Source: a virus
Strand: one strand, 5' to 3'
Length of the DNA stretch: 41,682 nt
Virus record (IMG/VR): IMGVR_UViG_3300049437_000042
Coordinates: 1-41,682 of that record
In this document: positions 1 through 41,682 of the stretch, in pieces
Layout: every line of letters starts with the position of its first letter
Position numbering within the stretch: the stretch's first letter is position 1
Position numbers and translations under genes: made by a program
The notes under the pieces: model-generated
Told to the model about the DNA's origin: nothing
The model's input: the letters and a program-made list of their open reading frames with translations, nothing else
Databases searched by the model: none

Positions 1-127
1 CACACCCCTGCGAGACTCGATCTCACCTGGACCAACAGCGGTGCCGCTGCCGATGCGGGTTGTAGGCACCTCTTCGTGTACCACGACAACCAAGACGTCA
101 CGCCCACGCAGTGATGGGACCGGTGTT
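1..127. repeat. Terminal direct repeat, copy 1 (identical to 41556..41682)
   Basis: Bases 1..127 (CACACCCCTGCGAGACTCGATC...GGGACCGGTGTT) recur exactly at the last 127 bases of the window. The repeat cuts through a small gene (its stop is at 112..114) and through the hairpin at 111..148, so it looks like an assembler overlap rather than a biological end. Confidence 0.9.
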
Positions 128-5029: not shown

Positions 5030-5347
5030 GTGACCGGGACGATAGTTGCTCGAACTATCCTGTTTGACGGTGAATTGTGGGTGTCGGTAGCCGACATGGC
5101 ACGACAGACTCCGGTACCCGTCCACACACCGGGTGAGCTTGAGCGCATGGCGATGACCCTGACCAACCACGTACGCCGACGCGGGGGCTACATGTCCCAC
5201 GCCGACGCTCGGCGAACCCTCCGGGCGGACCGACGGAGCATGTACCCCGATGTCCGTTCTAGGGCGGAAGATCTGTGCTTAATCTGGTCAAAACCCTCTG
5301 ATAGAGGAATTCGTGCCGTAACGGATTCAGACCATGCCGATCGGTGA
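5030..5347 (+). CDS. Hypothetical protein
   Basis: 105-aa ORF with a GTG start preceded by GAGGGGAGGA. It is the first gene after the AT-rich region. Confidence 0.6.
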   Translation: MTGTIVARTILFDGELWVSVADMARQTPVPVHTPGELERMAMTLTNHVRRRGGYMSHADARRTLRADRRSMYPDVRSRAEDLCLIWSKPSDRGIRAVTDSDHADR

Positions 5348-5840
5348 ATCACGGGTCAAGATCTGCAAAGACTGCCCGACCGACCGGCGGGGGAAGCCTC
5401 GACCGGCCCCGTACCCGGGCCCCCGGTGCGCCACGTGTCACCGGGGGCACAAGCGGTCCTCACGTGAACGTGGACGGGACAACCGGGCCGCTCGGGTCTA
5501 CGGGATACCCCCGGGCACGTATGAGGCGCTACGGGCCGCTCAAGGGGGCGTGTGCGCGGGGTGCGGACCGCGGACCGGTCGCAACGGAACCGGGCGCCGG
5601 AGGATGGCGGTCGATCACGAGCACAACCGGCGGGGGTGCACCCATCCCCCGGAGACAGGCTGTCCGCAGTGCGTCCGGGGTCTGCTGTGTTCCACGTGCA
5701 ACCAGGCCATCGGCGACTTTCGGGACGATCCCCTTACGCTGCTCAGACTGGCGCTGTACCTGGTGAGACCCCCCGCACGTGCGGTGCTGACCAATGGCTC
5801 ATTATTCGATCAACGTGTACGATGCGAACATGATACGTAG
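5334..5840 (+). CDS. Endonuclease VII family (Holliday-junction resolvase-like) protein
   Basis: 168 aa with the family pattern YGIPPGTYEALRAAQGGVCAGCG ... VDHEH ... RGLLCSTCNQAIGDFRDD. Confidence 0.85.
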   Translation: MPIGESRVKICKDCPTDRRGKPRPAPYPGPRCATCHRGHKRSSRERGRDNRAARVYGIPPGTYEALRAAQGGVCAGCGPRTGRNGTGRRRMAVDHEHNRRGCTHPPETGCPQCVRGLLCSTCNQAIGDFRDDPLTLLRLALYLVRPPARAVLTNGSLFDQRVRCEHDT

Positions 5841-6320: not shown

Positions 6321-6751
6321 GCCGGAATCCCGAGCGTGACCGGGAGATCTTCCGGGCGTTCTGTCTCGGTGAGCAGGTAGACGTCCTAGCAGAACGCCAT
6401 GCCCTGACGGTGAGCCGTATCCGCCAGGTGGTGGCAGTGCAGCGCGGTCGGCTTCCGGGCATGTCGGCAGCGGAGACCAGGGAAGAACTCAAGGTTCAGT
6501 TGGATGACCTACGCCGGCAGCTTCACGCCATCGTCGACTCCCCTCCGGCCATTGCCGAGAGGGAGTACGACGATGAAGGTCGGGTCACGGCCGTCAAGCT
6601 TGACCACTCCGGGCGGATCGCTGCCGCTCGCCAGATCGTGGCGGTGCAGAACCGGATGGCCAAGATGCTTGGGCTAGACAGTCCCGAGCAAGTGGAGGCG
6701 ACCACCACGGTCCGCTACGAACTGGTTGGGGTAGACCCGGAGGAACTGTGA
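6314..6751 (+). CDS. Terminase small subunit (candidate)
   Basis: 145 aa. It lies immediately upstream of the large terminase and overlaps it by 4 nt. It has an N-terminal HTH-like segment (LAERHALTVSRIRQVV) followed by a predicted helical region. Confidence 0.65.
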   Translation: MVSRNPERDREIFRAFCLGEQVDVLAERHALTVSRIRQVVAVQRGRLPGMSAAETREELKVQLDDLRRQLHAIVDSPPAIAEREYDDEGRVTAVKLDHSGRIAAARQIVAVQNRMAKMLGLDSPEQVEATTTVRYELVGVDPEEL

Positions 6752-8127
6752 CCGCCCGCACGCTGACGCACCGGTACGCCCCCCGCGGGGCGTGCCGGTC
6801 AGTCATGTCGGCCCGTGACGGGGAAGTGCTGCTCTCCGGCCCGGCGGGCACGGGCAAGAGCAGGGCAGCGTTGGAAAAGCTCCACTACCTGATGTTGAAG
6901 TACCCGCAGGCACGGGGGCTGATCCTGCGGAAGACACAGGTTTCGCTCGGGTCTACCGCCCTGGTCACCTGGCGCGAGCACGTGATCCCGGAGGCCCTGC
7001 TCTCCGGTGAAGTCTGGTTCTACGGCGGGTCGGGTGAGGAGCCTGCGCAGTACCGCTACCGCAACGGCTCACGCGTGATGATCGGAGGAATGGACAATCC
7101 AACAAAGATCATGTCATCGGAGTACGACGTGATCTATGTCCAGGAAGCGATAGAACTCACCGAGGCTGATTGGGATCATGCGTCGTCCCGTCTGCGCAAC
7201 GGGCGCATGCCCTACCAGCAGATGATTGCCGACACGAACCCGAGTACCCCGGTGCACTGGCTGAAGCAGCGAGGCAACCGAGGGGACGTCCGGATTCTGG
7301 AGTCCCGACACACGGACAATCCGGTGCTGTACCGCGACGACGGCAGCTTGACCCTGCGTGGTCAGGCGTACATGGCGATCCTGGACCGGCTGACCGGCCC
7401 CCGCCGGGCCCGGTTGCGTGACGGCAAGTGGGTGGCTGCGGAAGGCCAGATATGGGAGGGATGGGACGAATCGATACACCTGGTCGACCCGTTCCCAATC
7501 CCCGAGGATTGGCGCCGGGTATGGAGTGTCGACTTTGGATACACTCATCCGTTTGTGCTGCAAATGTGGGCACTCGATCCGGACGGTCGGCTCGTGCTGT
7601 ACCGCGAGATCTTCCGAACCAAGCGCCTGGTGGAGGAGCACGCGTACGACGTCATGGAATGCGTGAGCCGGCCCGATCCGGACTACGTGCACCAGGGCAG
7701 CGAACGGCAACGGGCCTACCAGGGCCGGATCTGGACGGAGCGCCGACCGGACTGGTTGGTGGCCGACCACGACGCAGAGGGGCGCGCCACCCTGGAACGG
7801 GAACTCGGCATGAGCACCCGGAAAGCCCACAAGGCAGTGGGGGACGGCCTGCAAGCGGTCGCCAGCCGGCTGAAGCCCGTGGGTGATGGCCGCCCCCGCC
7901 TCGTAATCCAGCGGGGGGCGACCGTACACCGGGATCAGGACCTACTCGACGCCATGAAGCCAGCCAGCACGGTGGAGGAGATTCCTGGGTACGTGTGGGC
8001 GGACGTGAAGCGCAAGGAAGAGCCGGTCAAGGTGGAAGACGATGGGTGCGACACCATGCGGTATGTGGTCATGGAGCTTGACCGGCCGTCCGGGTCGGGC
8101 ATCCGGGTGATGGGCGGGCGGAGGTAG
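6748..8127 (+). CDS. Terminase large subunit
   Basis: 459 aa. Walker A LLSGPAGTGKSRAA, followed by a C-terminal nuclease-like half. Position upstream of the head genes fits. Confidence 0.92.
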   Translation: MTARTLTHRYAPRGACRSVMSARDGEVLLSGPAGTGKSRAALEKLHYLMLKYPQARGLILRKTQVSLGSTALVTWREHVIPEALLSGEVWFYGGSGEEPAQYRYRNGSRVMIGGMDNPTKIMSSEYDVIYVQEAIELTEADWDHASSRLRNGRMPYQQMIADTNPSTPVHWLKQRGNRGDVRILESRHTDNPVLYRDDGSLTLRGQAYMAILDRLTGPRRARLRDGKWVAAEGQIWEGWDESIHLVDPFPIPEDWRRVWSVDFGYTHPFVLQMWALDPDGRLVLYREIFRTKRLVEEHAYDVMECVSRPDPDYVHQGSERQRAYQGRIWTERRPDWLVADHDAEGRATLERELGMSTRKAHKAVGDGLQAVASRLKPVGDGRPRLVIQRGATVHRDQDLLDAMKPASTVEEIPGYVWADVKRKEEPVKVEDDGCDTMRYVVMELDRPSGSGIRVMGGRR

Positions 8128-8148
8128 ACTGCTGCGTGGGTGATGGGA

Positions 8149-8200
8149 GCACAAAGAGAGGCCCGGTACCGCCGATCCGGTACCGGGCCTCTCTTTGTGC
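8149..8200. terminator. Bidirectional intrinsic terminator
   Basis: Perfect 22-bp stem GCACAAAGAGAGGCCCGGTACC / GGTACCGGGCCTCTCTTTGTGC with an 8-nt loop. It sits between the convergent terminase gene (+) and the reverse cassette (-). Confidence 0.8.
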
Positions 8201-8207
8201 CTACTGG

Positions 8208-8315
8208 TCAGTGACTTCGCGTGAGCAGGTAGACAAGGCTACCTGATGCGAACCCGGAAAAGAACGCTGAAAGGATGAGGCACGTCAACCAGAATCGGTG
8301 CTCGAACTGACTCAT
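8208..8315 (-). CDS. 35-aa membrane peptide (hypothetical)
   Basis: MSQFEHRFWLTCLILSAFFSGFASGSLVYLLTRSH. Its ATG forms an ATGA overlap with the upstream stop. The longer 106-aa reading is not protein-like. Confidence 0.45.
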   Translation of the reverse strand: MSQFEHRFWLTCLILSAFFSGFASGSLVYLLTRSH

Positions 8316-8500
8316 TCCGCGTTTCCTTCTGCCCGTTCGAGAGCGACCAGGCCGATAGGGGTAATGGTCCTGTCGGCACGAATCATGCCCCGGTCTTTGA
8401 AGATCCGCACGGTGTGCGGATGGGTGTCCCGTGGAATGGTGCTCCGGGGACTGCTCCGGGCCGCTTTCAGCGTTTCGATCTGATACGTGCTCAGCTCCAT
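8312..8500 (-). CDS. Small winged-helix-like protein (hypothetical)
   Basis: 62 aa, MELSTYQIETLKAARSS...TVRIFKDRGMI...ITPIGLVALERAE. The start overlaps the upstream stop (TGATG). It shares a sequence pattern with the 11301..11561 product. Confidence 0.55.
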   Translation of the reverse strand: MELSTYQIETLKAARSSPRSTIPRDTHPHTVRIFKDRGMIRADRTITPIGLVALERAEGNAE

Positions 8501-8976
8501 CACAGATTCCTTCCGTACTTCCGGACATACGCGATGTCCCGCTTGATAGTCACCTGTGACACCCCGTACAACGAGGCGCCTTCCGCCATGATGGTCACCG
8601 GTCGGGCACCGTTGCGGAGACTGGTCTCCACCCATTCCTGCCGGCTGGTCAGTACGTGCTCGTCGGGTTCAGCGGGCGGGGGGATAGGGGCGCGCCGTTT
8701 GGGCCGCCAGTTGACGTGCCAGTGCCCGGGTACCCCGTCCTCGGATGGGGTGACCTTGAACGTCCGGTCCCCCACTTCCCCGTCGGGGTCATCATCGGGA
8801 TCAGGATCAGGGTCAGGATCAGGATCACGATTGAGCAGGCGATTGATCCATGACCTGATCTGGACACCCGGGTCGGGGGAGTGGGGGTCATCACGCTGAG
8901 TGAGCCACCACTTACCCGTCAAGTAGATGATGGCGATCACGATCGGGGGCAGGATGAGCGCTTGAAAGTGAGTCAT
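8500..8976 (-). CDS. Membrane-anchored protein with (Asp-Pro)n linker and C-terminal HTH
   Basis: 158 aa from MTHFQALILPPIVIAIIYLTGKWW (one TM), then DPDPDPDPDPDDDPD, then a C-terminal HTH-like GASLYGVSQVTIKRDIAYVRKYG. Confidence 0.6.
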   Translation of the reverse strand: MTHFQALILPPIVIAIIYLTGKWWLTQRDDPHSPDPGVQIRSWINRLLNRDPDPDPDPDPDDDPDGEVGDRTFKVTPSEDGVPGHWHVNWRPKRRAPIPPPAEPDEHVLTSRQEWVETSLRNGARPVTIMAEGASLYGVSQVTIKRDIAYVRKYGRNL

Positions 8977-8981
8977 GGTCC

Positions 8982-9545
8982 TTATCCGAACAGGAAAGTC
9001 ATAAGCCAAACAACGGGCCACACGATGGTGTTCAGGACGATGTCGATCGAGGCACCGATAGCGCCCTGGGCGAGGTGCCCCGAGATACCGACTAGAAACG
9101 CGCTACCCCACAACCAGTAGTTGAGTCGTGGTCCACTCGATGCCCCTCCGTCATCCACGGTCAGGGAGTGCCGTCGACCGAACCGCATGCGTGCTGCCGG
9201 CCCCATGCGGCTAGCCCACGAGTCAGGGACCAACGCGCAGATAGTGAAGATCCAAATGCAGCCGATCACGGCACCGACGATCTTGTTCGCGTCGGCAGCG
9301 TGAATGTATGCGTCTCCGGTTTGCTTGAGACCAGCGGCAAGAGCGTCCGCCACTTTGCCAACCGTGTTGCGCTCGATATCCGACCCGGAGAATCCGTCCC
9401 GGATCGCCGTGACAGCGAACACCCATGCGACCCGATCCCGGATCGAGTTCGGCCCGACGCTCATCATGTCGATGAGCACGGCCAGCATGATGGTTACCGC
9501 CACCCCCGTAGGGGTCATAGCGTGCTGCCCGTGGATAGGGTCCAT
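8982..9545 (-). CDS. Polytopic membrane protein (hypothetical)
   Basis: 187 aa from the ATG at 9545, which is preceded by GAGGTG. It has several hydrophobic segments. Confidence 0.65.
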   Translation of the reverse strand: MDPIHGQHAMTPTGVAVTIMLAVLIDMMSVGPNSIRDRVAWVFAVTAIRDGFSGSDIERNTVGKVADALAAGLKQTGDAYIHAADANKIVGAVIGCIWIFTICALVPDSWASRMGPAARMRFGRRHSLTVDDGGASSGPRLNYWLWGSAFLVGISGHLAQGAIGASIDIVLNTIVWPVVWLMTFLFG

Positions 9546-9874
9546 CACTTGCACCTCGTGACCAGGTGGAACCATCCGTACCGTCCGGCGTCACGCCCGG
9601 TGACCTGCCTGCGCCATACCGACCGCTGCCCGCGGGGAGCCTTCCCCTTGGTCCAGTACCGCTTGCACACCTTCCGGTGGGCGGTCGGCCGCTTGGCGGA
9701 GGTGGTACCCGATCCTGCGGCCTGGTCCGGGCAGGCCGGTACGGTCACCGTGATGTCCGGGCGCCCGTTGGGGCTGAAGGTGGTGCCCCCGGGCAGGCAG
9801 GTGGCCACGCGGGGCGCCGAGCTGACCGCGGGGGTCAAGGCCAGGGACGCAGCCAGGGTGAGCTGAGCAATCAT
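9545..9874 (-). CDS. Secreted, Cys-containing basic protein (hypothetical)
   Basis: 109 aa with a signal-peptide-like N-terminus MIAQLTLAASLALTPAVSSA. It has 4 Cys and a very basic C-terminus. The stop overlaps the next start. Confidence 0.6.
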   Translation of the reverse strand: MIAQLTLAASLALTPAVSSAPRVATCLPGGTTFSPNGRPDITVTVPACPDQAAGSGTTSAKRPTAHRKVCKRYWTKGKAPRGQRSVWRRQVTGRDAGRYGWFHLVTRCK

Positions 9875-10080
9875 GATGGGTCCTTATCGCGATAAACGTA
9901 GTTGATTACACCGAATGGGATATAACAGAACACGAGGTACATTCCCCACGGTGCATGGTGCTGGTTGAGCAGATGTCCGAGGTACGTGACCCCGGCAACC
10001 CGCATGAGGAACCGCACGATTGGTATCCGGATCGTGAAGTACGCCAGGGCCCCGATGATGATCACGATGAACTCGATCAT
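9871..10080 (-). CDS. Small membrane protein (hypothetical)
   Basis: 69 aa with two hydrophobic segments. ATGA-type overlaps on both sides. Confidence 0.6.
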   Translation of the reverse strand: MIEFIVIIIGALAYFTIRIPIVRFLMRVAGVTYLGHLLNQHHAPWGMYLVFCYIPFGVINYVYRDKDPS

Positions 10081-10343
10081 GACGTGGTCTCCACCCGTGC
10101 ACCGAGTGCTTTTGCCACGTCGCGGACTGCCTGCTCTACCATGTCCAGTCCAGTCCAGGTGATATCCGGGTAGGCCCTGGCGAACACGGGGTCACCCTCG
10201 CCCATGGTGATCGTGATGCTGTAGTAGGCGGAGACGTCGATGGTCACCGTGGGGCAGAACTCAGAGATCAACTTGTCGATCTCAGCGGGAGACAGGCACG
10301 CTGCACGGCCCAGCGTGCGCAGCGTCAGCTCAAGTGGGCTCAC
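10077..10343 (-). CDS. Hypothetical protein
   Basis: 88 aa from the GTG at 10343, which is preceded by AAGGAAGAGG. The longer 141-aa reading has a non-protein-like N-terminus. Confidence 0.55.
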   Translation of the reverse strand: MSPLELTLRTLGRAACLSPAEIDKLISEFCPTVTIDVSAYYSITITMGEGDPVFARAYPDITWTGLDMVEQAVRDVAKALGARVETTS

Positions 10344-10345
10344 GA

Positions 10346-10606
10346 TTAGACCTCTTCCTTTGTGTCGACCTGGTGGGGAGCGTCGATCCGACAGGTGCGC
10401 CAGTGCCGACCCGGGAAGCACTGCGGGCACAGTTCCAGCTTGCGGGCGTTGCCAGCGCGCGAGAACGACGGATCGCCCACGATGGTCCCCGAGGTCCCGC
10501 ACTGCCCCCGCCAGGTAGTGGTCATCACGCGGTGCTCACTCTGTGCGGAGTGGAACCGCTCGACCGCATGGACCGGGTAGCCCGCAGTGGGCGTGTCGGC
10601 GCTCAC
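10346..10606 (-). CDS. Cys-rich small protein (possible Zn-ribbon)
   Basis: 86 aa. GTG start in a GTGA overlap with the methyltransferase stop. Contains CPQC plus further Cys residues. Confidence 0.5.
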   Translation of the reverse strand: MSADTPTAGYPVHAVERFHSAQSEHRVMTTTWRGQCGTSGTIVGDPSFSRAGNARKLELCPQCFPGRHWRTCRIDAPHQVDTKEEV

Positions 10607-11301
10607 CGGTCACGCTCCATGAACGCCGACCCGATGTACTGCGTGTACGCGGGAGGAATCGCTTCGCACACCGAGTTCAGGTTGTTCGCCAGCCAGTACG
10701 TGCCCATGGCGTTAGCAGCCGCGCGCACCCACGCTTTCGAGTGGTGACCGTTGCGCCCAGTGATGGTCATCATCGGACGATCCGCATCGGGTAGGTAGCC
10801 GTTCCGCATCGTGAGCCGCGAGTGCGGGCGGTGCTCCGGAGCGGGGGGCTTCACCCATCCGCCCCCGAACTCAAACCAACGGTGCCGGTACACGATCAAC
10901 CCGAACGACGCGCCGCACAGTGTGAGCGGGTCACGGAGTCCGGTTCGGTGGTAGGCCACGTTTTCGATCACGTAGGGAAGGCCGGTCGCGTCTAGTGCGT
11001 CACGGGTTGCCGGGATCAGGTTGACCGGATCGGCGGTGCTCGGGTTGCGCATGGTGTGTCGACGCCGGAACGCACTGGTTGGACTGCTGGCCTGGCACGG
11101 TGGGGACGCGTGGATGGCAACTGGCCGGTAGCGCTCGACCAGGTACGGCAGAATCTCCAGTGCGTCTGCCCGGTAGAACGCGAACGGGTACTCGGGGTGG
11201 TCGTCGAGATCGACCCCGACGACACTGAATCCGGCCGACGCGTAACCGACGCCCGCGCCGCCGCCGCCACAGAACAGATCTAACAGAACCGGCTGGTGCA
11301 T
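10603..11301 (-). CDS. DNA (cytosine-5)-methyltransferase, short form
   Basis: 232 aa from MHQPVLLDLFCGGGGAGVGY (motif I). Also ASPPCQ (motif IV, catalytic Cys), VIENV (motif VI) and C-terminal CEAIPPAY. The start overlaps the upstream stop (TGATG). Confidence 0.88.
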   Translation of the reverse strand: MHQPVLLDLFCGGGGAGVGYASAGFSVVGVDLDDHPEYPFAFYRADALEILPYLVERYRPVAIHASPPCQASSPTSAFRRRHTMRNPSTADPVNLIPATRDALDATGLPYVIENVAYHRTGLRDPLTLCGASFGLIVYRHRWFEFGGGWVKPPAPEHRPHSRLTMRNGYLPDADRPMMTITGRNGHHSKAWVRAAANAMGTYWLANNLNSVCEAIPPAYTQYIGSAFMERDR

Positions 11302-11561
11302 CACGCGTGGTGGAACTTGCAGGAGGGACCGTCCGCGCACACCGGCTGTGTTCCGATCAGGGCCGGAGCACCGATCAGCGCGCGTCCGTCCGAAGTGATG
11401 TACCGCATGGTGACAGTCGAGCCGGCCGGCCGGACCTCGGCGATCAGGTTGAGCGCCTTCAGGGACCTGACAGTCGCGCCCGGAACGTTGAAGATGAAGC
11501 CGTACCGGTTCGATGCTGCGCGGTTCAGTGTCTCGGTCTGTGAAGAGGTGAGCTTGATCAT
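11301..11561 (-). CDS. Small winged-helix-like protein (hypothetical)
   Basis: 86 aa, MIKLTSSQTETLNRAASN...ATVRSLKALNLI...ITSDGRALI. It is preceded by GGAGGCACCCG and is the first gene after promoter copy A. Confidence 0.6.
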   Translation of the reverse strand: MIKLTSSQTETLNRAASNRYGFIFNVPGATVRSLKALNLIAEVRPAGSTVTMRYITSDGRALIGAPALIGTQPVCADGPSCKFHHA

Positions 11562-11601
11562 CGGGTGCCTCCGGGTGGTTCAGGGTGTCGGACGAGTCTT
11601 C

Positions 11602-11631
11602 AGTCTAGTGCACGACGTACACGCCGTGCAA
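11602..11631 (-). promoter_or_regulatory. Sigma-70-like promoter (copy A of a duplicated ~43-bp module)
   Basis: Minus strand reads TTGCAC - 18 nt - TAGACT. The module 11598..11640 is nearly identical to 12156..12200. Confidence 0.6.
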
Positions 11632-11650
11632 GTCATACACTGCGTACTGA

Positions 11651-11842
11651 TCACCAGTCCACCGGCCGGTTGTGTCGGCAATCGATGTGACAAGCGATCC
11701 ACCACGGAACCAGGCGACGTAGGCGCCACTGGTAGATGACTCCGCCGTACGTGTGCTCCCGGCAAGGTCGGTCACCGACCTTGCCGCAGGCGAAGCACAC
11801 CAGGTGTCGGTGGTAGCACAGCCATGCGGCAACGCGCTTCAC
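11651..11842 (-). CDS. Cys/His-rich small protein (hypothetical)
   Basis: 63 aa from a GTG in a GTGA overlap with the upstream stop. It ends in ...NRPVDW, sharing its last 17 nt with the upstream gene. Confidence 0.45.
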   Translation of the reverse strand: MKRVAAWLCYHRHLVCFACGKVGDRPCREHTYGGVIYQWRLRRLVPWWIACHIDCRHNRPVDW

Positions 11843-12129
11843 CAGTCCACCGGCCGCGCGTAGTCTTCCGACGCATCGTTGAGCCGTTCCAACGCGCACC
11901 GCACGTGCCGCTTCCAGCACTCGTCATCGCACGGCTTGCCGGTCGGCGCCTTCACCTCCGGCAACATCTGGTCCAGCAGGGTCAGCACGGCGTCTGACAC
12001 GTCCAGTGACGCCTCACGTCCCTCGTGCTCGACCTCGACTGCATCGTCAGCCAGCCGGCCCAGCGCTTCTGCCGTGAAAAGTCGTCCGGCCTCGGCGCAC
12101 TCGGCTATCGCTCGATCAAGTCCACTCAT
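11839..12129 (-). CDS. Acidic hypothetical protein
   Basis: 96 aa from the ATG at 12129, which is preceded by GGAGGTAACGAC. It ends in ...ARPVDW. Confidence 0.6.
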   Translation of the reverse strand: MSGLDRAIAECAEAGRLFTAEALGRLADDAVEVEHEGREASLDVSDAVLTLLDQMLPEVKAPTGKPCDDECWKRHVRCALERLNDASEDYARPVDW

Positions 12130-12159
12130 GTCGTTACCTCCGGGTGTCAATGAGACTTC

Positions 12160-12189
12160 AGTCTAGTGCATAGCGTACACGCCGTGCAA
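12160..12189 (-). promoter_or_regulatory. Sigma-70-like promoter (copy B of the duplicated module)
   Basis: Minus strand reads TTGCAC - 18 nt - TAGACT, followed by TTGACACCCGGAGG and the ATG at 12129. Confidence 0.6.
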
Positions 12190-12203
12190 TTCATGCACAC
12201 TAC

Positions 12204-12479
12204 GTGACGGATATAGTGCACAACGTCATCAGGGGCTACGATCACGGCGTGACGGTTGCAGACCGGGTGTCCCGGTGGTATCAGGGTCGGTCGTTCCTGG
12301 CCGTCCTCGCGCGTGCCGCCGCACGGCTGGTCCGCCCCCGCCCCGGCTGGTTGTCCAGCGGGGCGGGGGCGATCGCTGTTCTGACCGCCTGGCAGCTTCA
12401 CCCGGTTGCCGCCGGAGCGGTCGCCGTGGTGGTCCTGTTGCTGGCTGAGTGGCGGGTAGCCGGTCGGGGCGTCCGGTGA
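12204..12479 (+). CDS. Hypothetical membrane protein
   Basis: 91 aa with a GTG start and no obvious SD. It has a hydrophobic C-terminal half, and its stop overlaps a candidate portal start (GTGA). Confidence 0.4.
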   Translation: MTDIVHNVIRGYDHGVTVADRVSRWYQGRSFLAVLARAAARLVRPRPGWLSSGAGAIAVLTAWQLHPVAAGAVAVVVLLLAEWRVAGRGVR

Positions 12480-14551
12480 CCAGCGTTGTCGGGCAAGCCC
12501 TGACTGCACTGCGGAGTATCCGCAACGAGGCGCCCGTGCCCCTCACCCGTCGATCAGGTCTCATGGGCCGGCTGGACGCCCTGATCAACACTGAGACCTA
12601 CCTGGCCACCATGGGCACGGTCGGCACGGTCAATGCCATCGTCAACGGGCTGGCTGAAGCGGTCAGCGCTGCCGAGTGGAAGTTGTACCGGACGGCCGCG
12701 AGCGGTAAGGAAGAGGATCGGGTCCAGGTCATGCGGCACGCTGCCTTGAAGGCGTGGCGCACACCGAACCCGTTCATGACCAACCTTGAGTTCGTACACG
12801 CGTTTCAACAGCATCTTGAACTTGTGGGGGAAACGGACTGGCTGGTTGGTCGGTCTGCGGGGTACGACGTCCCGCTGGAACTGTGGCCCATCCGTCCCGA
12901 CCGGATCGCCCCGGTGGAGCACCCGACCAAGTTCATGACCGAGTGGACTTACTCCGGCCCGGACGGGCAGACGATCCCGCTCCGGCTGGACCAGGTGATC
13001 CAAACCAAGTTGCCGAACCCATGCGACCCGTACCGGGGCATGGGCACGCTGCAATCCGTCATGCACGACGTCGACGCAGCCCGGTACTCCGCACGCTGGA
13101 ACCGGAATTTCTTCCTGAACGGGGCCATGCCGGGTGGTGTGATCGAGGTACCCGACAAGCTGTCAGACCCCGAGTGGAACGAGATGCAGGATCGGTGGGA
13201 GTCGTCCCACCGGGGAGTGGACAACGCCCACCGGGTAGCGATCATCGAACGTGGCAAGTGGGTTCCTGCCATGTTCTCGATGCGGGACATGCAGTTCGGC
13301 GAGTTGCGCGAGGTGTCCCGCGAGATCATCCGGGAAGCCTGGCGCTACCCCAAGGCCATGTTGGGCACGGCAGAGGACGTCAACCGGGCCAACGCGGAAG
13401 CGGCAGAGGTCATGCTCGCTCGCTGGCTCGTGCTCCCCCGCCTCCGGCGTATCCGGGACACCCTGAACTTCAAGTTCCTTCCCCTCTTTGGGCTCACGGC
13501 CACGGGCCTTGAGTTCGACTTCACGAGTCCCGTACCCGAGGACCAGGCAGCGGAGAACGCTGAGCGGGACAGCAAGGTAGCGGCGTACGTGGCCCTGGTT
13601 GGGGCAGGGGTTGAGCCGGACGACGCTTCGGAATACCTCGACATGCCCAAGATGTCGATCAAGGTAACGAGCACGGTCGGCCCGCCCGTGACCGACCCGG
13701 CGTTGCCGCCCGTTCCGCCTGAACCGGCACCTGAACCCGCTCCGGCAGCCCACGTGCATGAGCACCGGGTGTTGCCGATGCTGCCCATGATGCTGCTGGC
13801 CACCAACGCCACCCCGCGGGAGACCGACCCTGCATACCTCGCCTACCAGGCGGAGATCGACAAGTTGGTGGGGGACTGGTCCGGGATCACCGAAGCGCAG
13901 CGTGCAGAGATCCATGAGCAGGTCACGGCCGCTGTCGACACCGGAGACATCACCACCCTGGCCGCGCTCGTGGTCACCACGGCAGGAGCGGGGGCCCTCT
14001 TGACCGCGAGCATGATCTCTCTGTTCGGGGCGATCGCCGCTCTCACCGTGGCGGACGCCGCTGTCCAGGGTGTGACCATTACGCCGGCGGTCGCCGTTGC
14101 GTCGCAGGTAGCGGACGTGGCCAACGTCGTAGTTGCGCTCATGGCGTCCGGGCTGGCTGACGCGGCAGCCCGGGAAGCGCTCCGTTTGACCGTGCCAGGG
14201 GCTACCGGCAGCGCGGTAGCGGACCAGGTGGACGAACACCTCGCTGCGTTGTCCGATGACTTCCTGCATGGGCGTCTCGGTGGGGCACTGTGGCGGGCGG
14301 CGGCCGCCGGATGGGGCCAGACGGTCAGTGACGCCCTGGCTGCGGGGGAAGAGGCAGAGTTCTACGCCTCCGAACGGCTGGACCTGAACACCTGCGCACC
14401 GTGCCGTGAGGTGGACGGCAAGCACCTGGTGTCGTGGGAGGCTGTCGTGATCGCTGGGTACGCCAACAACGGCGGGTACCTCGATTGCCAGGGTGGCGAG
14501 CGTTGCCGTGGTCGGGTGCGAACCGTCTGGATCGGAGTACGTGATGCGTAA
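12476..14551 (+). CDS. Portal protein fused to a MuF-like C-terminal domain
   Basis: The ORF is open from 12449. The GTG at 12476 gives a GTGA coupling, so the start is ambiguous (12449, 12476 or ATG 12563). The N-terminal ~400 aa is portal-like. An Ala/Val-rich segment follows. The C-terminus LDLNTCAPCREVDGK...CQGGERCRGRV resembles the conserved MuF/SPP1 gp7 end. Confidence 0.85.
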   Translation: MTSVVGQALTALRSIRNEAPVPLTRRSGLMGRLDALINTETYLATMGTVGTVNAIVNGLAEAVSAAEWKLYRTAASGKEEDRVQVMRHAALKAWRTPNPFMTNLEFVHAFQQHLELVGETDWLVGRSAGYDVPLELWPIRPDRIAPVEHPTKFMTEWTYSGPDGQTIPLRLDQVIQTKLPNPCDPYRGMGTLQSVMHDVDAARYSARWNRNFFLNGAMPGGVIEVPDKLSDPEWNEMQDRWESSHRGVDNAHRVAIIERGKWVPAMFSMRDMQFGELREVSREIIREAWRYPKAMLGTAEDVNRANAEAAEVMLARWLVLPRLRRIRDTLNFKFLPLFGLTATGLEFDFTSPVPEDQAAENAERDSKVAAYVALVGAGVEPDDASEYLDMPKMSIKVTSTVGPPVTDPALPPVPPEPAPEPAPAAHVHEHRVLPMLPMMLLATNATPRETDPAYLAYQAEIDKLVGDWSGITEAQRAEIHEQVTAAVDTGDITTLAALVVTTAGAGALLTASMISLFGAIAALTVADAAVQGVTITPAVAVASQVADVANVVVALMASGLADAAAREALRLTVPGATGSAVADQVDEHLAALSDDFLHGRLGGALWRAAAAGWGQTVSDALAAGEEAEFYASERLDLNTCAPCREVDGKHLVSWEAVVIAGYANNGGYLDCQGGERCRGRVRTVWIGVRDA

Positions 14552-30139: not shown

Positions 30140-30373
30140 ATGATCACGTACACATGGTGGAAGGACGTAGGGGAACGCCTGCTGTCCACGGCGGTGCAGG
30201 CTGGCCTGGCCGTGGTGGTGGTGGAGATCGCACGCAAGGGCACCCTGCTCGACCTGGACTGGCTGACCCTGGCTGACACGGCCGGTGTCGCGGCGGTGCT
30301 GGCACTGTGGAAGGGATGGGTCGCCCGGTCGGTGGGGGATCGGAACTCGGCCAGTCTGGTGGACACCCAATGA
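30140..30373 (+). CDS. Holin (r1t-like pattern)
   Basis: 77 aa. WWKDVGERLLSTAVQAGLAVVVV ... AGVAAVLALWKGW resembles the r1t holin family. Confidence 0.65.
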   Translation: MITYTWWKDVGERLLSTAVQAGLAVVVVEIARKGTLLDLDWLTLADTAGVAAVLALWKGWVARSVGDRNSASLVDTQ

Positions 30374-31083
30374 CACTCCCCACTCCCCGGACGCCGCTAC
30401 CGCTGCCACACGCGACGACGCTACCCGCACAACGGGGACCGCAGGCAGCGGCGCCCCTACCCGTGGGGGTATATCCGATGTTCGTAGGTGACTCGATCAC
30501 AGCGGGCACGGGGACGTGGCGACCGGACCGGGACGCGTTCCCGGTCCGGTGGACTGATCGAGCCTGCGGGCAGGATCAGGCTCTCCGGTCGCAGGTGTTG
30601 CGGTCAGGGATCGGAGGCGCGTGCCTCACCGTGCCTCACGGCACCACCCCCGCTCTCACCGACATGTGGGCGACGGTTGTCCTCGGGGCTACCCCAGCCC
30701 CCACAACCGTGATCGTTGAGATAGGAGTGAATGATCTTTTTGAAGACGTCGCGCTCGATCAGATGGCCATGGCGTATCGGTACCTGATGACTAGCGGAAA
30801 CAGCGCCGGGGTACGGGTTCTGTTCATGACGATTCCACCGTCAACCACCCAATGGCCCTGGCACACAGCGCACAATCCGCGTCGGCAGGCCATCAACGGA
30901 TGGCTACGGGACTACTTCGGGATGGGCAACCTGATCGACATCGACGCGGGCTTACGGATCGGCACCTCCGGGGAGGCCGATCCCTGCTACTTCGAGATCA
31001 ACGGAGTGGGGGATGGGCTGCACCCGAACACGCTGGGGGCCCTGTCCATCGCTGACTGGATCGGGATTGAGAGGGTGACATGA
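30370..31083 (+). CDS. SGNH/GDSL hydrolase (esterase) in the lysis cassette
   Basis: 237 aa with ATGA coupling. Block I FVGDSITAG, block III EIGVNDL, block V GDGLHPN. Confidence 0.8.
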   Translation: MTLPTPRTPLPLPHATTLPAQRGPQAAAPLPVGVYPMFVGDSITAGTGTWRPDRDAFPVRWTDRACGQDQALRSQVLRSGIGGACLTVPHGTTPALTDMWATVVLGATPAPTTVIVEIGVNDLFEDVALDQMAMAYRYLMTSGNSAGVRVLFMTIPPSTTQWPWHTAHNPRRQAINGWLRDYFGMGNLIDIDAGLRIGTSGEADPCYFEINGVGDGLHPNTLGALSIADWIGIERVT

Positions 31084-31707: not shown

Positions 31708-31913
31708 CGGCTGGTCCATCCTTTTGGGTGGCCGTAGTTGGGATCGGTGCGCGACCCACCGGAGAAGTCATCGGGTACCGCCTGCCTGCTCGTGTCGGTC
31801 GCCTGCTGCCCGCTCGACCCCTGCGCGGTACCCGCCCGGTGCCTGCCGTCGCGGGCAGTTGCTGCCCGCTCGATCCGGGTGCGGTCACCGTACGGTGCGT
31901 GGTGCTTGCCCAT
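31704..31913 (-). CDS. Basic, low-complexity 69-aa ORF (uncertain)
   Basis: Strong SD (GGAGGGGATC) before the ATG at 31913, and an ATGA overlap with the next gene. However, it is encoded over DNA-level repeats (TCGAGCGGGCAGCA is read in two different frames). Confidence 0.35.
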   Translation of the reverse strand: MGKHHAPYGDRTRIERAATARDGRHRAGTAQGSSGQQATDTSRQAVPDDFSGGSRTDPNYGHPKGWTSR

Positions 31914-31968
31914 GATCCCCTCCGGGTGCTGTGTAGAACGTACACAGCGTACCACTGCCTGTCCACGA

Positions 31969-32092
31969 GCGGGTACCCGCTCACTGCCCGCCGACCTACT
32001 ACGGGTACCCGCTCGCTGTCCACACTGAGCGGGTACCCGCTTTGTACATGCTCCGAACAAAGCGGGTACCCGCTCAGTGCCCGGGTACCCGC
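31969..32092. repeat. Array of five GCGGGTACCCGC palindromes (intergenic part of a larger cluster)
   Basis: Perfect 12-mers at 31969, 32029 and 32062. 11/12 copies at 32001 and 32081. Flanks extend several copies to GAGCGGGTACCCGCTC. The copies at 32029 and 32062 are the arms of a 17-bp inverted repeat with an 11-nt spacer. Confidence 0.9.
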
Positions 32093-32108
32093 TCGTGTCT
32101 GACGTAGG

Positions 32109-33236: not shown

Positions 33237-33242
33237 GGGGTA

Positions 33243-33272
33243 AGTGTACGTTGTGCACACTCGGGAGCGCAA
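33243..33272 (-). promoter_or_regulatory. Sigma-70-like promoter giving a leaderless transcript
   Basis: Minus strand reads TTGCGC - 18 nt - TACACT - 6 nt - ATG. Confidence 0.55.
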
Positions 33273-34289: not shown

Positions 34290-34395
34290 GTACTCACCTC
34301 CCGTCGTGTAGACGCTGGCCTAACCCCTCACCAGCACATCGAGGCGCACAGTACTCTGACGCACTTGCGCGTGTGCATCACCCCGATTTCCCGCG

Positions 34396-34474
34396 TGGGA
34401 TGGACAGGATTTGAACCTGTGACCTCGGAACATCTAGCCCGGGTGTCCGTGCTCTGCCACTGAGCTACCATCCC
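34396..34474 (-). tRNA. tRNA-like gene 1 (canonical acceptor, D and T arms; expanded anticodon arm)
   Basis: Minus strand reads GGGATGG TA GCTCAGTGGCAGAGC A [CGGACACCCGGGCTAGATGTTCCG] AGGTC ACAGGTTCAAATCCTGT CCATCCC A. The bracketed arm is 24 nt where 17 are expected. No CCA is encoded. Confidence 0.5.
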
Positions 34475-39342: not shown

Positions 39343-39380
39343 GGTGGTCCTCTCGGGTCAGGGTGTCGGATACAGCAAGC

Positions 39381-40782: not shown

Positions 40783-40811
40783 CGGTGCCTCCGGGTGTCG
40801 GTCGAGCCTTG

Positions 40812-41476: not shown

Positions 41477-41669
41477 GGCACGTGAGCGCTGGATCAGGGT
41501 CTACCCGGACCGACGGTGGCCTAGGGAGTGGACCTACCAGTGCCGGATCTGCGGGCACACCCCTGCGAGACTCGATCTCACCTGGACCAACAGCGGTGCC
41601 GCTGCCGATGCGGGTTGTAGGCACCTCTTCGTGTACCACGACAACCAAGACGTCACGCCCACGCAGTGA
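41469..41669 (+). CDS. Small Cys-containing protein (possible Zn-ribbon)
   Basis: 66 aa from a GTG that overlaps the previous gene by 8 nt. YQCRICGH ... GCRH. Its 3' end is duplicated at 1..114 by the terminal overlap. Confidence 0.5.
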   Translation: MSEARERWIRVYPDRRWPREWTYQCRICGHTPARLDLTWTNSGAAADAGCRHLFVYHDNQDVTPTQ

Positions 41670-41682
41670 TGGGACCGGTGTT
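41556..41682. repeat. Terminal direct repeat, copy 2 (identical to 1..127)
   Basis: Exact 127-bp identity with the first 127 bases of the window. Confidence 0.9.

What the first reader, a model, noticed from the sequence alone, without database searches (positions are those of the whole stretch)
8208..12200. 4-kb reverse-oriented, own-promoter cassette inserted between the large terminase and the portal gene
Terminase large subunit and portal genes are normally adjacent. Here they are separated by twelve minus-strand genes. The cassette is bounded by a strong bidirectional terminator (8149..8200) and by two near-identical promoter modules (TTGCAC-18-TAGACT at 11602..11631 and 12160..12189).
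Most genes are translationally coupled through ATGA, GTGA or TGATG overlaps, which supports a real operon. The products are:
- two paralogous small wHTH-like proteins,
- a short orphan C5 methyltransferase,
- a Cys-rich protein,
- four membrane proteins or peptides,
- a secreted basic Cys protein,
- a membrane-anchored protein with a C-terminal HTH,
- two small proteins that share a C-terminal RPVDW.
The mix of envelope-targeted proteins with small DNA binders and a methylase, driven by consensus-like host-type promoters inside the late region, resembles a moron, superinfection-exclusion or counter-defence island rather than a morphogenesis module. None of the non-methylase proteins is recognisable to me.
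Basis: partly seen in the sequence, partly recalled or inferred. Interest (0 to 1): 0.65.

Follow-up and report, generated by a model that had tools for sequence, protein, structure and literature searches.

The report
Reverse accessory operon between terminase and portal
A phage from bioreactor metagenomes carries a real, separately controlled block of twelve small non-structural genes pointing backwards between its DNA-packaging and portal genes; blocks like this are known in phages of this group, but this one holds a widespread, uncharacterised gene pair that probably ties DNA to the cell membrane.

Summary
Window 8208-12150 carries twelve minus-strand genes between TerL and portal. They end at a 24-bp hairpin (8149-8200) and are driven by two copies of a 47-nt promoter module. 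Independent gene callers found 11 of the 12; the twelfth (gK) has homologues in 7 protein clusters. Nine genes shared with a sister phage have dN/dS 0.06-0.60.

The window is a circularly closed 41.6-kb actinophage genome with no integrase or repressor detected. More distant relatives (TerL 47-60% identical) have 0.2-2.6 kb of unrelated genes at this junction, so it is a hot spot. The sister phage (structural genes 92-95% identical) has the same reverse operon but lacks gK, promoter P2, gJ and the methyltransferase.

Every cassette family with relatives elsewhere sits in non-structural regions there. gD (membrane protein, confident model, no fold match) is followed by gC (TM helix plus C-terminal HTH) in 8 of 8 contexts.

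Best reading: an accessory, probably early, non-morphogenetic operon with an orphan cytosine methylase and a DNA-to-membrane module. A defence or exclusion role is not shown. The gJ/gB paralogy is not supported. Such interruptions are already documented in actinophages: a new member of a known kind, of moderate interest.

The parts
6748..8127 (+). Large terminase (left flank; convergent with the cassette)
   Evidence: Pfam Terminase_3 and Terminase_6N. 93% identical to the sister phage's TerL.
8149..8200 (.). Perfect 24-bp GC-rich hairpin with loop GGATCGGC; shared putative bidirectional factor-independent terminator without a U-tract
   Evidence: -52.9 kcal/mol, z = -8.4. In sister phages the loop is invariant and the stem changes are compensatory. 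RNA-run X4 contigs break at 8148|8198 (weak evidence).
8208..8315 (-). gA: 35-aa single-TM peptide, last gene of the operon
   Evidence: Called by independent gene callers. TM segment at residues 10-28. Sister homologue 43-68% identical, dN/dS 0.35.
8312..8500 (-). gB: 62-aa basic protein (pI 9.7), possible small DNA binder
   Evidence: Sister homologue 78-80% identical, dN/dS 0.17. No family hit. No other homologue.
8500..8976 (-). gC: 158 aa with an N-terminal TM helix, invariant SP motif, (D/E)P acidic repeat, small beta-meander, and C-terminal three-helix HTH
   Evidence: Family of about 28 clusters. AF2 pLDDT 86, with 98 in the HTH. Local Foldseek matches to Mu transposase I-beta, AsnC, DeoR and sigma region 4. 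dN/dS 0.19.
8982..9545 (-). gD: 187-aa all-helical polytopic membrane protein, always followed by a gC-type gene
   Evidence: Family of about 47 clusters. AF2 pLDDT 88, pTM 0.83. No fold match in PDB or BFVD. dN/dS 0.06. gD followed by gC in 8 of 8 contexts.
9545..9874 (-). gE: 109 aa, N-terminal hydrophobic segment, very basic (pI 11.4), 4 Cys; probably exported
   Evidence: Sister homologue 89% identical, dN/dS 0.14. Weak syntenic homologue upstream of gD in L031. Export was not tested.
9871..10080 (-). gF: 69-aa membrane protein (1-2 TM)
   Evidence: Sister homologue 61% identical, dN/dS 0.45.
10077..10343 (-). gG: 88-aa acidic soluble protein
   Evidence: Sister homologue 61% identical, dN/dS 0.60.
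10346..10606 (-). gH: 86-aa protein with invariant His13, Cys60 and Cys63 and near-invariant Cys36 (putative zinc site)
   Evidence: Family of about 35 clusters. Homologue on Saccharothrix plasmid CP091383. Sister homologue 83% identical, dN/dS 0.29.
10603..11304 (-). gI: short orphan C5-cytosine DNA methyltransferase (232-233 aa); absent from the sister phage
   Evidence: PHROG 363 at 1.2e-29. Motifs FCGGGG, PPCQ and ENV seen in the sequence. DNA similarity to methylase genes of Gordonia, Mycobacterium and Arthrobacter phages. No Pfam PF00145 hit.
11301..11561 (-). gJ: 86-aa basic ORFan with a C-terminal C-x5-C-x2-HH motif; first gene after P2; absent from the sister phage
   Evidence: GC3 0.82. 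GGAGG ribosome-binding site 7 nt upstream of the ATG. Called independently. Matches only itself in 1.84 billion representatives.
11594..11640 (-). Promoter module P2: TTGCAC-18-TAGACT (11631-11602) with two GTGCA-N5-TGCAC-like inverted repeats
11651..11842 (-). gK: 63-aa Cys/His-rich protein (CxxC...CxxH); GTGA-coupled to gL; not called by the automatic gene callers; absent from the sister phage
   Evidence: Homologues in 7 clusters sharing CFACG...PC.GHEYGG. Frame-consistent GC3. Flanked by the 18-nt repeat CGGCCGGTGGACTGGTGA.
11839..12129 (-). gL: 96-aa acidic protein with a conserved C-x3-C-x3-H-x2-C motif; first gene after P1
   Evidence: Sister homologue 56% identical, dN/dS 0.47. A distant relative lies beside a lysis cassette in L042.
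12152..12198 (-). Promoter module P1: TTGCAC-18-TAGACT (12189-12160) with two inverted repeats, one of them a perfect GTGCA-N5-TGCAC; back-to-back with the start of the late operon
   Evidence: The module, 5'UTR and ribosome-binding site are nearly unchanged in the sister phage, although the gL gene beside it is only 66% identical at the nucleotide level.
12216..12479 (+). Small TM protein conserved immediately upstream of portal in this lineage (right flank, first late-operon gene)
   Evidence: Counterparts in L007, L009, L011 and L013-L016. 89% identical in the sister phage.
12449..14551 (+). Portal protein (right flank)
   Evidence: Pfam Phage_portal at 4e-54.
33243..33272 (-). Third promoter of the same type (TTGCGC-18-TACACT) in front of a leaderless ORFan in the right arm
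   Evidence: 3 matches against 0.38 expected.

Best explanation
The region is a genuine, self-contained, leftward-transcribed accessory operon. It sits at a recombination hot spot, the TerL-portal junction, in an apparently lytic actinobacteriophage.

Two tandem host-type (SigA-like) promoters drive it, and each carries a pair of inverted-repeat operators. P1 drives gL and gK. P2 drives gJ, gI, gH, gG, gF, gE, gD, gC, gB and gA. Transcription stops at a hairpin shared with the convergent TerL gene. Genes are translated by start/stop coupling.

The content is a mosaic of the small genes that other actinophages keep in their early or non-structural regions:
- four small Cys/His (probably zinc-binding) proteins;
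- an orphan C5 cytosine methyltransferase, which most likely pre-empts host restriction of phage DNA;
- a conserved, mobile envelope module, gE-gD-gC.

In that module, gC is anchored in the membrane by its N-terminal helix and presents a cytoplasmic HTH. Together with the polytopic partner gD, it most likely holds DNA at the membrane. This is the same design as phage phi29 p16.7, which organises phage DNA replication at the membrane.

Genes are gained and lost one at a time by recombination at the short repeats formed by the coupling junctions.

Shown: gene reality, operon anatomy, hot-spot behaviour, module conservation, protein architectures.
Inferred: promoter and terminator activity, early timing, methylase role, DNA tethering.
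For: Gene reality:
- GC3 phase fits each ORF.
- Independent gene callers found 11 of 12.
- dN/dS is 0.06-0.60 for the 9 shared genes.
- gK has 7 homologous clusters.

Operon anatomy:
- The promoter duplicates occur twice against 0.00 expected and form a 47-nt repeat.
- P1, its UTR and its ribosome-binding site are conserved in the sister phage next to a gene only 66% identical at the nucleotide level.
- The operator motif is enriched, 9 matches against 2.06 expected, with two copies per module.
- A third promoter of the same type lies in the right arm.
- The hairpin has z = -8.4 and compensatory changes in the sister phages.
- The coupling junctions are visible in the sequence.

Hot spot:
- The TerL-portal gap is 0.2-2.6 kb with unrelated contents in 13 IMG/VR relatives and in Dagobah.
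- The sister phage has the operon in the same place, minus gK, P2, gJ and gI, plus a 61-aa gene and, in one variant, a 70-aa gene.
- Mosaic identity ranges from 60% to 96%.

Non-structural nature:
- gD-gC lies next to a helicase in L036.
- It lies next to lysis genes and an XRE regulator in pMLP1, L031 and L039.
- gK lies in a long string of small co-oriented genes in L037.
- A gL relative lies beside a lysis cassette in L042.
- gH has a homologue on a plasmid.
- Methylase homologues lie in the right arms of Gordonia and Mycobacterium phages.

Other points:
- gC architecture comes from the alignment, the AF2 model and HTH fold matches.
- No integrase or repressor was found.
- The p16.7 design is described in PMC4974454.
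Against: - There are no transcription-start or strand-specific RNA data. The metatranscriptome runs hold the cassette at the same depth as the rest of the phage, and their contigs cross the divergent promoter region. DNA carry-over therefore cannot be excluded.
- The -35 element TTGCAC matches TTGACA at only 3 of 6 positions, and the generic promoter scan did not flag it.
- The hairpin has no U-tract.
- In temperate relatives (pMLP1, L031, L039) gD-gC sits where prophage-expressed genes usually sit. That fits an exclusion or defence role at least as well as replication anchoring.
- gC shows no sequence or ranked fold similarity to p16.7 itself.
- The methylase target is unknown.
- gE, gJ, gB, gG, gF and gA have no functional clue at all.
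Confidence: 0.6

Rival explanations
1. Superinfection-exclusion or anti-phage island. The envelope proteins (gA, gF, gE, gD, gC) are made early and block DNA entry or development of competing phages, as T4 Imm/Sp do in a lytic phage, or as prophage membrane proteins such as Charlie's and CarolAnn gp43/44 do in actinobacteria.
For: - Five of the twelve products are membrane or exported proteins.
- In pMLP1, L031 and L039 the gD-gC pair lies in the accessory region next to lysis genes and an XRE regulator, in opposite orientation to the late genes.
- A neighbour in pMLP1 gives a sub-threshold Pycsar-effector hit, and L031 carries a GGDEF gene nearby.
- gL, gG, gF and gA diverge much faster than the flanking genes.
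- Precedents in actinophages are described in PMC6426606.
Against: - No PADLOC model matches.
- There is no sequence relation to CarolAnn or Sbash genes: the phage-collection tblastn found only pMLP1.
- gE, gD and gC are under strong purifying selection, like the structural genes.
- An HTH domain is not a feature of known exclusion proteins.
- In L036 the pair is embedded beside the replicative helicase.
Confidence: 0.22
2. Regulatory switch module. One or more of the small DNA binders (gB, gJ, or the gC HTH) act on the paired GTGCA-N5-TGCAC operators. These overlap P1 and P2 and lie back-to-back with the start of the portal operon. The cassette would then time the early-to-late transition or shut itself off.
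For: - Each module has two operators 18 bp apart, and the motif is enriched genome-wide.
- P1 abuts the 5' end of the late operon, and the whole divergent region is conserved in the sister phage.
- A related promoter and operator precede a right-arm gene.
- The cassette encodes at least one confident HTH.
Against: - More distant relatives have the same late genes without the cassette, so it cannot be essential for late expression.
- The sister phage keeps P1 but lacks gJ.
- No binding data exist.
- gB and gJ have no recognised DNA-binding domain.
Confidence: 0.12
3. Morphogenesis or packaging accessory. Because of its position, the cassette might encode assembly or packaging helpers.
For: Only its position between TerL and portal supports this.
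Against: - It lies on the opposite strand, with its own promoters and terminator.
- It is absent from relatives that have homologous TerL, portal, protease and capsid genes.
- Homologues elsewhere lie in non-structural regions.
- There are no structural-protein family hits.
Confidence: 0.03
4. Passive passenger DNA: a fragment captured from a pMLP1-like temperate phage or plasmid, with no current function.
For: - gE-gD-gC and gH have relatives in temperate phages and plasmids.
- The cassette lacks the coding-strand purine excess of the other operons: GC3 skew is -0.08 against about 0.
Against: - All nine comparable genes are under purifying selection.
- Promoter, UTR, coupling junctions and hairpin are conserved between species.
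- GC and GC3 match the genome.
Confidence: 0.04

Closest known systems
Gene insertions in the structural operon of actinobacteriophages (Microbacterium Cluster EC, Cluster EF and singleton Hendrix between terminase and portal; Cluster EJ with four leftward genes inside the structural operon; PMC7302621)
   Same: Extra genes of unknown function interrupt the canonical terminase-portal order. Some sets are transcribed leftward, and some carry repeated intergenic motifs. The phages are lytic.
   Different: There is no sequence relation to those phages. Here the block is a single 12-gene operon with duplicated operator-bearing promoters and a shared hairpin terminator. Its turnover can be traced gene by gene against a sister species.
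Morons (extra transcription units inserted between conserved phage genes, with their own promoter and terminator; from my own knowledge of the Hendrix/Juhala concept)
   Same: The block is present in one lineage and absent from relatives at the same junction. It is bracketed by a promoter and a terminator-like hairpin.
   Different: Classical morons are one or a few genes expressed from a prophage, and they often differ in base composition. This is a 12-gene operon in a phage with no lysogeny genes, and its GC and GC3 match the genome.
Phage phi29 p16.7 (early integral membrane protein that organises phage DNA replication at the membrane; PMC4974454)
   Same: gC has the same design: a short N-terminal TM anchor, a linker, a small C-terminal helical DNA-binding-type domain, and a small size. 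It lies outside the structural genes, and in L036 it lies next to the helicase.
   Different: No sequence or profile similarity was found. p16.7 is not among the top 50 fold matches. gC always comes with the polytopic partner gD, which phi29 lacks. This phage shows no sign of protein-primed replication.
RexAB-like two-gene defences of actinophages (Gordonia phage CarolAnn gp43/gp44, Mycobacterium phage Sbash gp30/gp31; PMC6426606)
   Same: A multi-pass membrane protein of about 170-190 aa is paired with a second protein. It is encoded as an accessory unit with its own promoter.
   Different: There is no sequence similarity. The partner here is a 158-aa TM-anchored HTH, not a 370-aa DUF4747 protein. 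Those systems are prophage-expressed.
Orphan DNA methyltransferases of actinobacteriophages (PHROG 363; for example Gordonia phage PhorbesPhlower gp62 and Mycobacterium phage Jasper gp82)
   Same: gI matches the family profile at 1e-29 and shares 67-68% DNA identity over 190-380 nt. It has C5 motifs I, IV and VI and no partner nuclease.
   Different: In those phages the gene lies in the right-arm non-structural region. Here it is part of a block (gK-P2-gJ-gI) inserted into the cassette and missing from the sister phage.

Membership tests
Moron / accessory transcription unit | Present at a junction where related phages lack it | tested here: met
   13 IMG/VR relatives and Dagobah have other contents or nothing at this junction. 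Only the sister species shares the cassette.
Moron / accessory transcription unit | Own promoter upstream and terminator downstream | tested here: inconclusive
   The sequence features are present and conserved. No transcript-end data exist, because the RNA runs are unstranded contigs.
Moron / accessory transcription unit | Expressed from the prophage, independently of lytic genes | not testable with these tools
   No integrase, repressor or partition gene was detected, so the phage is probably not temperate.
Moron / accessory transcription unit | Base composition distinct from the surrounding genome | tested here: not met
   GC is 0.633 and GC3 0.776, against 0.647-0.668 and 0.78-0.81 elsewhere. 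Only a mild difference in strand skew was found.
C5 cytosine DNA methyltransferase | Motif I (FxGxG, SAM binding), motif IV (PCQ, catalytic Cys), motif VI (ENV) | tested here: met
   LFCGGGG, SPPCQAS and VIENVAY are present in gI.
C5 cytosine DNA methyltransferase | Match to a curated family profile | tested here: inconclusive
   PHROG 363 'DNA methyltransferase' matches at 1.2e-29. There is no Pfam PF00145 hit at E<=1, no NCBIfam hit and no PDB sequence hit.
C5 cytosine DNA methyltransferase | Methylation activity and target sequence | not testable with these tools
   This needs methylome sequencing of phage DNA.
phi29 p16.7-like membrane DNA organiser | N-terminal TM anchor plus C-terminal small helical DNA-binding domain | tested here: met
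   TM helix at residues 3-27 and a three-helix bundle at 111-154 with pLDDT 98. HTH fold matches with rmsd 1.6-2.1 A over 45-47 residues.
phi29 p16.7-like membrane DNA organiser | Sequence or fold homology to p16.7 | tested here: not met
   The gC family profile against PDB sequences gave no p16.7 hit at E<=10. p16.7 is not in the Foldseek top 50.
phi29 p16.7-like membrane DNA organiser | Binds DNA and localises replication to the membrane | not testable with these tools
   This requires experiment.
RexAB-like defence (CarolAnn gp43/44, Sbash gp30/31) | Homology of the membrane protein and a DUF4747 partner | tested here: not met
   tblastn of all cassette products against 50,697 phage records hit only pMLP1. 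No DUF4747 hit in Pfam.
Known anti-phage defence systems (PADLOC-DB) | Any component model matched | tested here: not met
   No hits at E<=0.1 for the ten products scanned; gI and gA were not included.
Intrinsic (factor-independent) terminator | Stable GC-rich hairpin | tested here: met
   24-bp stem, -52.9 kcal/mol, z = -8.4, with covariation in the sister phages.
Intrinsic (factor-independent) terminator | U-tract after the stem | tested here: not met
   No T-run follows the stem on either strand. Tail-less hairpin terminators are reported for high-GC actinobacteria (my own knowledge, not tested here).
Restriction-modification controller (C protein) plus methylase unit | Small HTH_3-type controller and a cognate nuclease | tested here: not met
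   gJ has no HTH family hit, and no nuclease-like product is present in the cassette.

The most novel reading that the evidence does not exclude
gD-gC, with gE in some lineages, would be a previously unrecognised and widespread actinophage/prophage system. A polytopic membrane protein of novel fold would work with a membrane-anchored HTH protein to hold or gate DNA at the cytoplasmic membrane. It would either organise the phage's own genome there or capture incoming foreign DNA. It would move as a cassette between early, lysis-adjacent and structural-operon locations.
Probability: 0.3. Interest if true: 0.7.

Novelty: new member of a known kind. Interest (0 to 1): 0.45.

Why it matters
Taken alone, the cassette is one more example of accessory genes breaking the canonical terminase-portal order in actinophages. 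Three things make it useful.

1. It is a clean case where gene-by-gene turnover can be read against a sister species. All three indels sit on start/stop coupling junctions flanked by 8-18 nt repeats. That suggests how small phage genes are shuffled without breaking operon translation.

2. It flags a strictly paired, strongly conserved gene couple, gD-gC. The families span about 47 and 28 clusters at 50% identity. The gD model is confident and has no fold match. No database names either family. This makes the pair a good target for functional work on how actinophages use the membrane.

3. It gives a compact set of candidate regulatory elements: two tandem promoters with paired 15-bp inverted repeats, plus a third copy elsewhere. 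These could be tested directly.

Tried and rejected
- megablast and blastn of the region against 50,697 phage records: no near relative. Only short methylase matches and one pMLP1 match.
- GTDB genome scan with TerL: no prophage relatives.
- Word-indexed search of 5.8 billion proteins: one hit for gD+gC and none for the other nine products. The exhaustive HMMER search was needed.
- IMG/VR scan with gD: nothing.
- PDB sequence searches, NCBIfam, PADLOC, and Pfam on every member of the gC and gH families: nothing above threshold.
- Fold searches for gD in PDB and BFVD: no match.
- RNA evidence: only unstranded assembled contigs with even depth across the phage, so this does not prove minus-strand transcription.
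- gJ/gB paralogy: rejected as unsupported.
- gL/gK relationship: only the last five residues, caused by an 18-nt DNA repeat.
- Host inference from 'LysB': rejected. The GDSL esterase beside the lysin is unrelated to known actinophage LysB.
- Rfam: only sub-threshold miRNA-hairpin matches to the terminator stem.
- GTGCAC as a possible over- or under-represented methylase target: 24 sites against 22 expected, so no signal.
- Literature search for pMLP1 gene functions: nothing held.

Full report
**What the window is.** The first and last 127 nt are identical, so the window is a circular assembly of 41,555 bp. GC content is 65%. It encodes DNA polymerase A, a primase-polymerase, endonuclease VII, a small terminase with a Mor-like HTH, TerL, portal, a ClpP-type protease, the major capsid protein, tail genes, a lysin with a peptidoglycan-binding domain and a GDSL esterase. 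A minus-strand right arm carries an exonuclease and a helicase. No integrase, repressor or partition gene was detected. The same genome occurs in several bioreactor metagenomes and in two metatranscriptome runs. It has no near relative among 50,697 deposited phages, and no prophage relative in one genome per GTDB species. The closest cultured relatives are Thermobifida phage P1312 (TerL 57%) and Streptomyces phage Dagobah (TerL 49%, portal 46%). The host is therefore an unidentified high-GC actinobacterium.

**Checking the observation.** Twelve minus-strand ORFs fill 8208-12150. I call them gL, gK, gJ, gI, gH, gG, gF, gE, gD, gC, gB and gA, in order of transcription.
- The position of highest GC3 switches phase exactly where each ORF begins.
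- Gene callers used for the Logan and JGI records called eleven of them with identical lengths.
- They missed only gK, which has homologues in seven protein clusters sharing CFACG...PC.GHEYGG.
- Eight of eleven junctions are 1-4 nt start/stop overlaps.
- The element at 8149-8200 is a perfect 24-bp stem: -52.9 kcal/mol, z = -8.4.
They extend to a 47-nt repeat at 87% identity, found nowhere else in the genome.

**The decisive comparison.** A sister phage was recovered through the gL homologue. It comprises 16 contigs of up to 40.6 kb from another study. Its TerL, portal, protease and capsid are 92-95% identical to the window's, and it has a reverse operon at the same junction. It shares gL, gH, gG, gF, gE, gD, gC, gB and gA in the same order. 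For these nine genes dN/dS is 0.06-0.60, against 0.07-0.11 for TerL, portal and capsid.

Divergence is strongly mosaic:
- gE, gD and gC are about 90% identical at the protein level.
- gH is 83% identical and gB 79%.
- gL, gG and gF are 56-61% identical, and gA 43-68%.

The sister phage lacks gK, P2, gJ and the methyltransferase gI. It has an extra 61-aa TM gene between P1 and gL, and one variant has an extra 70-aa gene after gA.

Each of the three indels is bounded by short direct repeats that lie on the coupling junctions:
- GACATGAG around the 61-aa gene;
- the 18-nt CGGCCGGTGGACTGGTGA around gK, which is why gL and gK both end in RPVDW;
- GGTGA(A)GCGC around the gK-P2-gJ-gI block.

Regulatory elements are conserved. 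P1 with its -35, its -10, both inverted repeats, the 5'UTR and the ribosome-binding site is almost unchanged in the sister phage, although the adjacent gL is only 66% identical at the nucleotide level. The hairpin is retained with an invariant loop and a differently sequenced but perfectly paired stem.

**The junction is a hot spot.** In 13 IMG/VR relatives with TerL 47-60% identical, the TerL-portal distance ranges from about 0.24 to 2.6 kb. Three or four have only a small conserved TM gene before portal. Others carry one to six unrelated forward genes. L007, L009 and L011 each carry a single reverse gene; in L007 and L011 it is an HTH gene. Dagobah has two forward genes there. None has any cassette gene, except that L015 has a methylase homologue between TerS and TerL. 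That condition is not met.

**Where the genes come from.** An exhaustive HMMER search of 1.84 billion cluster representatives gave the following:
- about 47 clusters for gD, 28 for gC, 35 for gH and 7 for gK;
- one or two clusters for gL, gG, gF and gA, mostly from the sister phage;
- only self matches for gE, gJ and gB.

A gD gene is followed by a gC-type gene in every context examined:
- the window and the sister phage;
- the temperate Micromonospora phage pMLP1;
- ENA contig L031, where a weak gE homologue precedes them;
- L036, directly after a helicase 47% identical to this phage's helicase;
- L039, L040 and L041.

In pMLP1, L031 and L039 the pair lies in an operon convergent with the lysis genes and near XRE- or MerR-type regulators. 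One pMLP1 neighbour gives a sub-threshold Pycsar-effector hit (25.7 bits against a 27.2 cut-off). A gK relative lies in a long run of small co-oriented genes. A gL relative lies beside a lysis cassette. A gH relative lies on a Saccharothrix plasmid among nucleotide-metabolism genes. Methylase relatives lie in the right arms of Gordonia and Mycobacterium phages. All of these are non-structural settings.

**The products.**
- gI matches PHROG 363 (DNA methyltransferase) at 1.2e-29 and has C5 motifs I, IV and VI. It misses Pfam PF00145, NCBIfam and PDB sequences. No nuclease accompanies it.
- gC family members share an N-terminal TM helix, an invariant SP motif, a (D/E)P repeat, a variable middle and a conserved C-terminal WV..SL..GAR..DIV.EG...FG.SE.T.KRAIR.VR. 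AlphaFold2 gives pLDDT 86 overall and 98 in a C-terminal three-helix bundle. That bundle superposes on the Mu transposase I-beta, AsnC, DeoR, sigma region 4 and homeodomain HTHs at 1.6-2.1 A over about 45 residues. E-values are non-significant, as expected for so small a domain.
- gD is modelled confidently (pLDDT 88, pTM 0.83) as an all-helical membrane protein. It has no match in PDB or BFVD.
- gH has invariant His13, Cys60 and Cys63 and near-invariant Cys36.
- gK (CxxC...CxxH), gL (C-x3-C-x3-H-x2-C) and gJ (C-x5-C-x2-HH) also look like small metal-binding proteins.
- gE is very basic, has four Cys and an N-terminal hydrophobic stretch without a charged n-region. Export is plausible but unverified.
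- gA and gF are small membrane proteins, and gG is acidic and soluble.
- The claimed gJ/gB paralogy fails both BLASTP and a shuffle test.
- None of the ten products scanned matched a PADLOC model; gI and gA were not included in that scan.

**Regulation.**
- The pattern TTGC[AG]C-N18-TA[GC]ACT occurs three times, all on the minus strand, against 0.38 expected: P1, P2, and a site at 33243-33272 lying 6 nt before a leaderless ATG.
- The 15-bp inverted repeat GTGCA-N5-TGCAC, allowing one mismatch, occurs 9 times against 2.06 expected. Two copies 18 bp apart overlap the -35 and the spacer of each cassette promoter.
- P1 lies back-to-back with the 5' end of the late operon.
- A 12-nt leader element, CCGACACCCTGA, is shared by the gJ UTR and the helicase upstream region. 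The cassette therefore uses the phage's own regulatory vocabulary.

These are sequence-level inferences. The RNA runs are unstranded contigs at the same depth as the rest of the genome. Their contigs break at the hairpin in one run but also cross the divergent promoter region.

**Interpretation.** The best-supported reading is an accessory, independently transcribed, non-morphogenetic operon of early-type genes parked at a recombination hot spot. The methylase most plausibly protects phage DNA from restriction. The gE-gD-gC module places a DNA-binding domain at the inner face of the membrane. The nearest functional analogue is phi29 p16.7, a TM-anchored early protein that recruits replicating phage DNA to the membrane (PMC4974454). 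It is an analogue in design only, because homology was tested and not found.

A role in excluding other phages remains a serious rival, given the module's position in temperate relatives and precedents such as CarolAnn gp43/44 (PMC6426606). Against that rival stand the strong purifying selection on gE, gD and gC, the helicase-adjacent context in L036, and the absence of any defence-model hit. A purely regulatory role, a morphogenetic role and a functionless passenger are each less likely, for the reasons given under the rival explanations.

**Novelty.** Gene sets between terminase and portal, and leftward gene groups inside structural operons, are already documented for Microbacterium phages: Cluster EC, Cluster EF, singleton Hendrix and Cluster EJ (PMC7302621). 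The finding is therefore a new member of a known kind. The more original content is the strictly paired gD-gC family and the junction-repeat mechanism of gene turnover.

Noticed in passing
window 1-127 and 41556-41682: The two ends are identical over 127 nt, so the window is a circularly closed assembly of 41,555 bp, that is, a complete phage genome.
   Followed up: partly
window 31791-32731: There are five copies of a palindrome-containing 23-nt repeat (core AGCGGGTACCCGCTC) and a 55-nt tandem pair. They lie between the end of the late operon and the start of the right arm and partly inside the 375-aa ORFan. They could be replication-origin iterons or a regulator array.
   Followed up: no
window 33236-33272 (-): A third promoter of the cassette type (TTGCGC-18-TACACT, with a GTGCAC-containing repeat) lies just after a terminator-like hairpin and 6 nt before an ATG. 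This implies a leaderless mRNA for a 375-aa protein with no family match.
   Followed up: partly
window 34395-34474 (-): The genome's single tRNA, tRNA-Ala(GGC), lies in a stretch of lower GC (about 59%) at 33.5-35.5 kb.
   Followed up: no
window 11580-11591 and 39358-39369 (-): The 12-nt element CCGACACCCTGA is shared by the gJ 5'UTR and the region just upstream of the helicase start. Counting a one-mismatch copy at 40790-40801, there are 3 matches against 0.56 expected. It may be a common leader element.
   Followed up: partly
window 11839-11856, 11651-11668, 10603-10612; L033 9990-10010: All three gene indels between this phage and its sister are flanked by short direct repeats that coincide with start/stop coupling junctions (8, 18 and about 9 nt). 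This suggests microhomology-mediated gain and loss of single genes.
   Followed up: partly
L015 820-1563: A relative with 50% TerL identity carries a homologue of the cassette methyltransferase (35% identity) between its small and large terminase genes. This is another unusual location inside the packaging module.
   Followed up: no
L029 (pMLP1) 5343-5786; L031 998-1981: Next to the gD-gC pair, pMLP1 encodes a protein with a sub-threshold Pycsar-effector (PycTM) match. The L031 prophage-like contig carries a GGDEF-domain gene nearby. Both hint that the module travels with defence or signalling cargo in temperate elements.
   Followed up: no
window 8208-12129 versus the rest of the genome: The cassette matches the genome in GC and GC3 but lacks the coding-strand G and A excess of the other three gene blocks (GC3 skew -0.08 against about 0). 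The effect is strongest in the window-specific genes gK, gJ and gI (-0.12).
   Followed up: partly
window 30307-31083 (+): The GDSL-family esterase beside the lysin occupies the LysB position. It has no relative among deposited actinophage LysB genes; its only hits are in Acinetobacter phage MD-2021a records at 25% identity.
   Followed up: partly
window 12449-14551 (+): The portal ORF is 700 aa. Its C-terminal part of about 250 residues aligns as a separate segment in relatives L005 and L010, and it is absent from the 445-aa Dagobah portal. This suggests a fused extra domain.
   Followed up: no
window 8148 | 8198 in RNA run X4: Metatranscriptome contigs stop and restart exactly at the two feet of the hairpin, whereas the DNA assembly reads through. 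This is compatible with termination in both directions, but also with assembly or reverse-transcription drop-out at a strong inverted repeat.
   Followed up: partly
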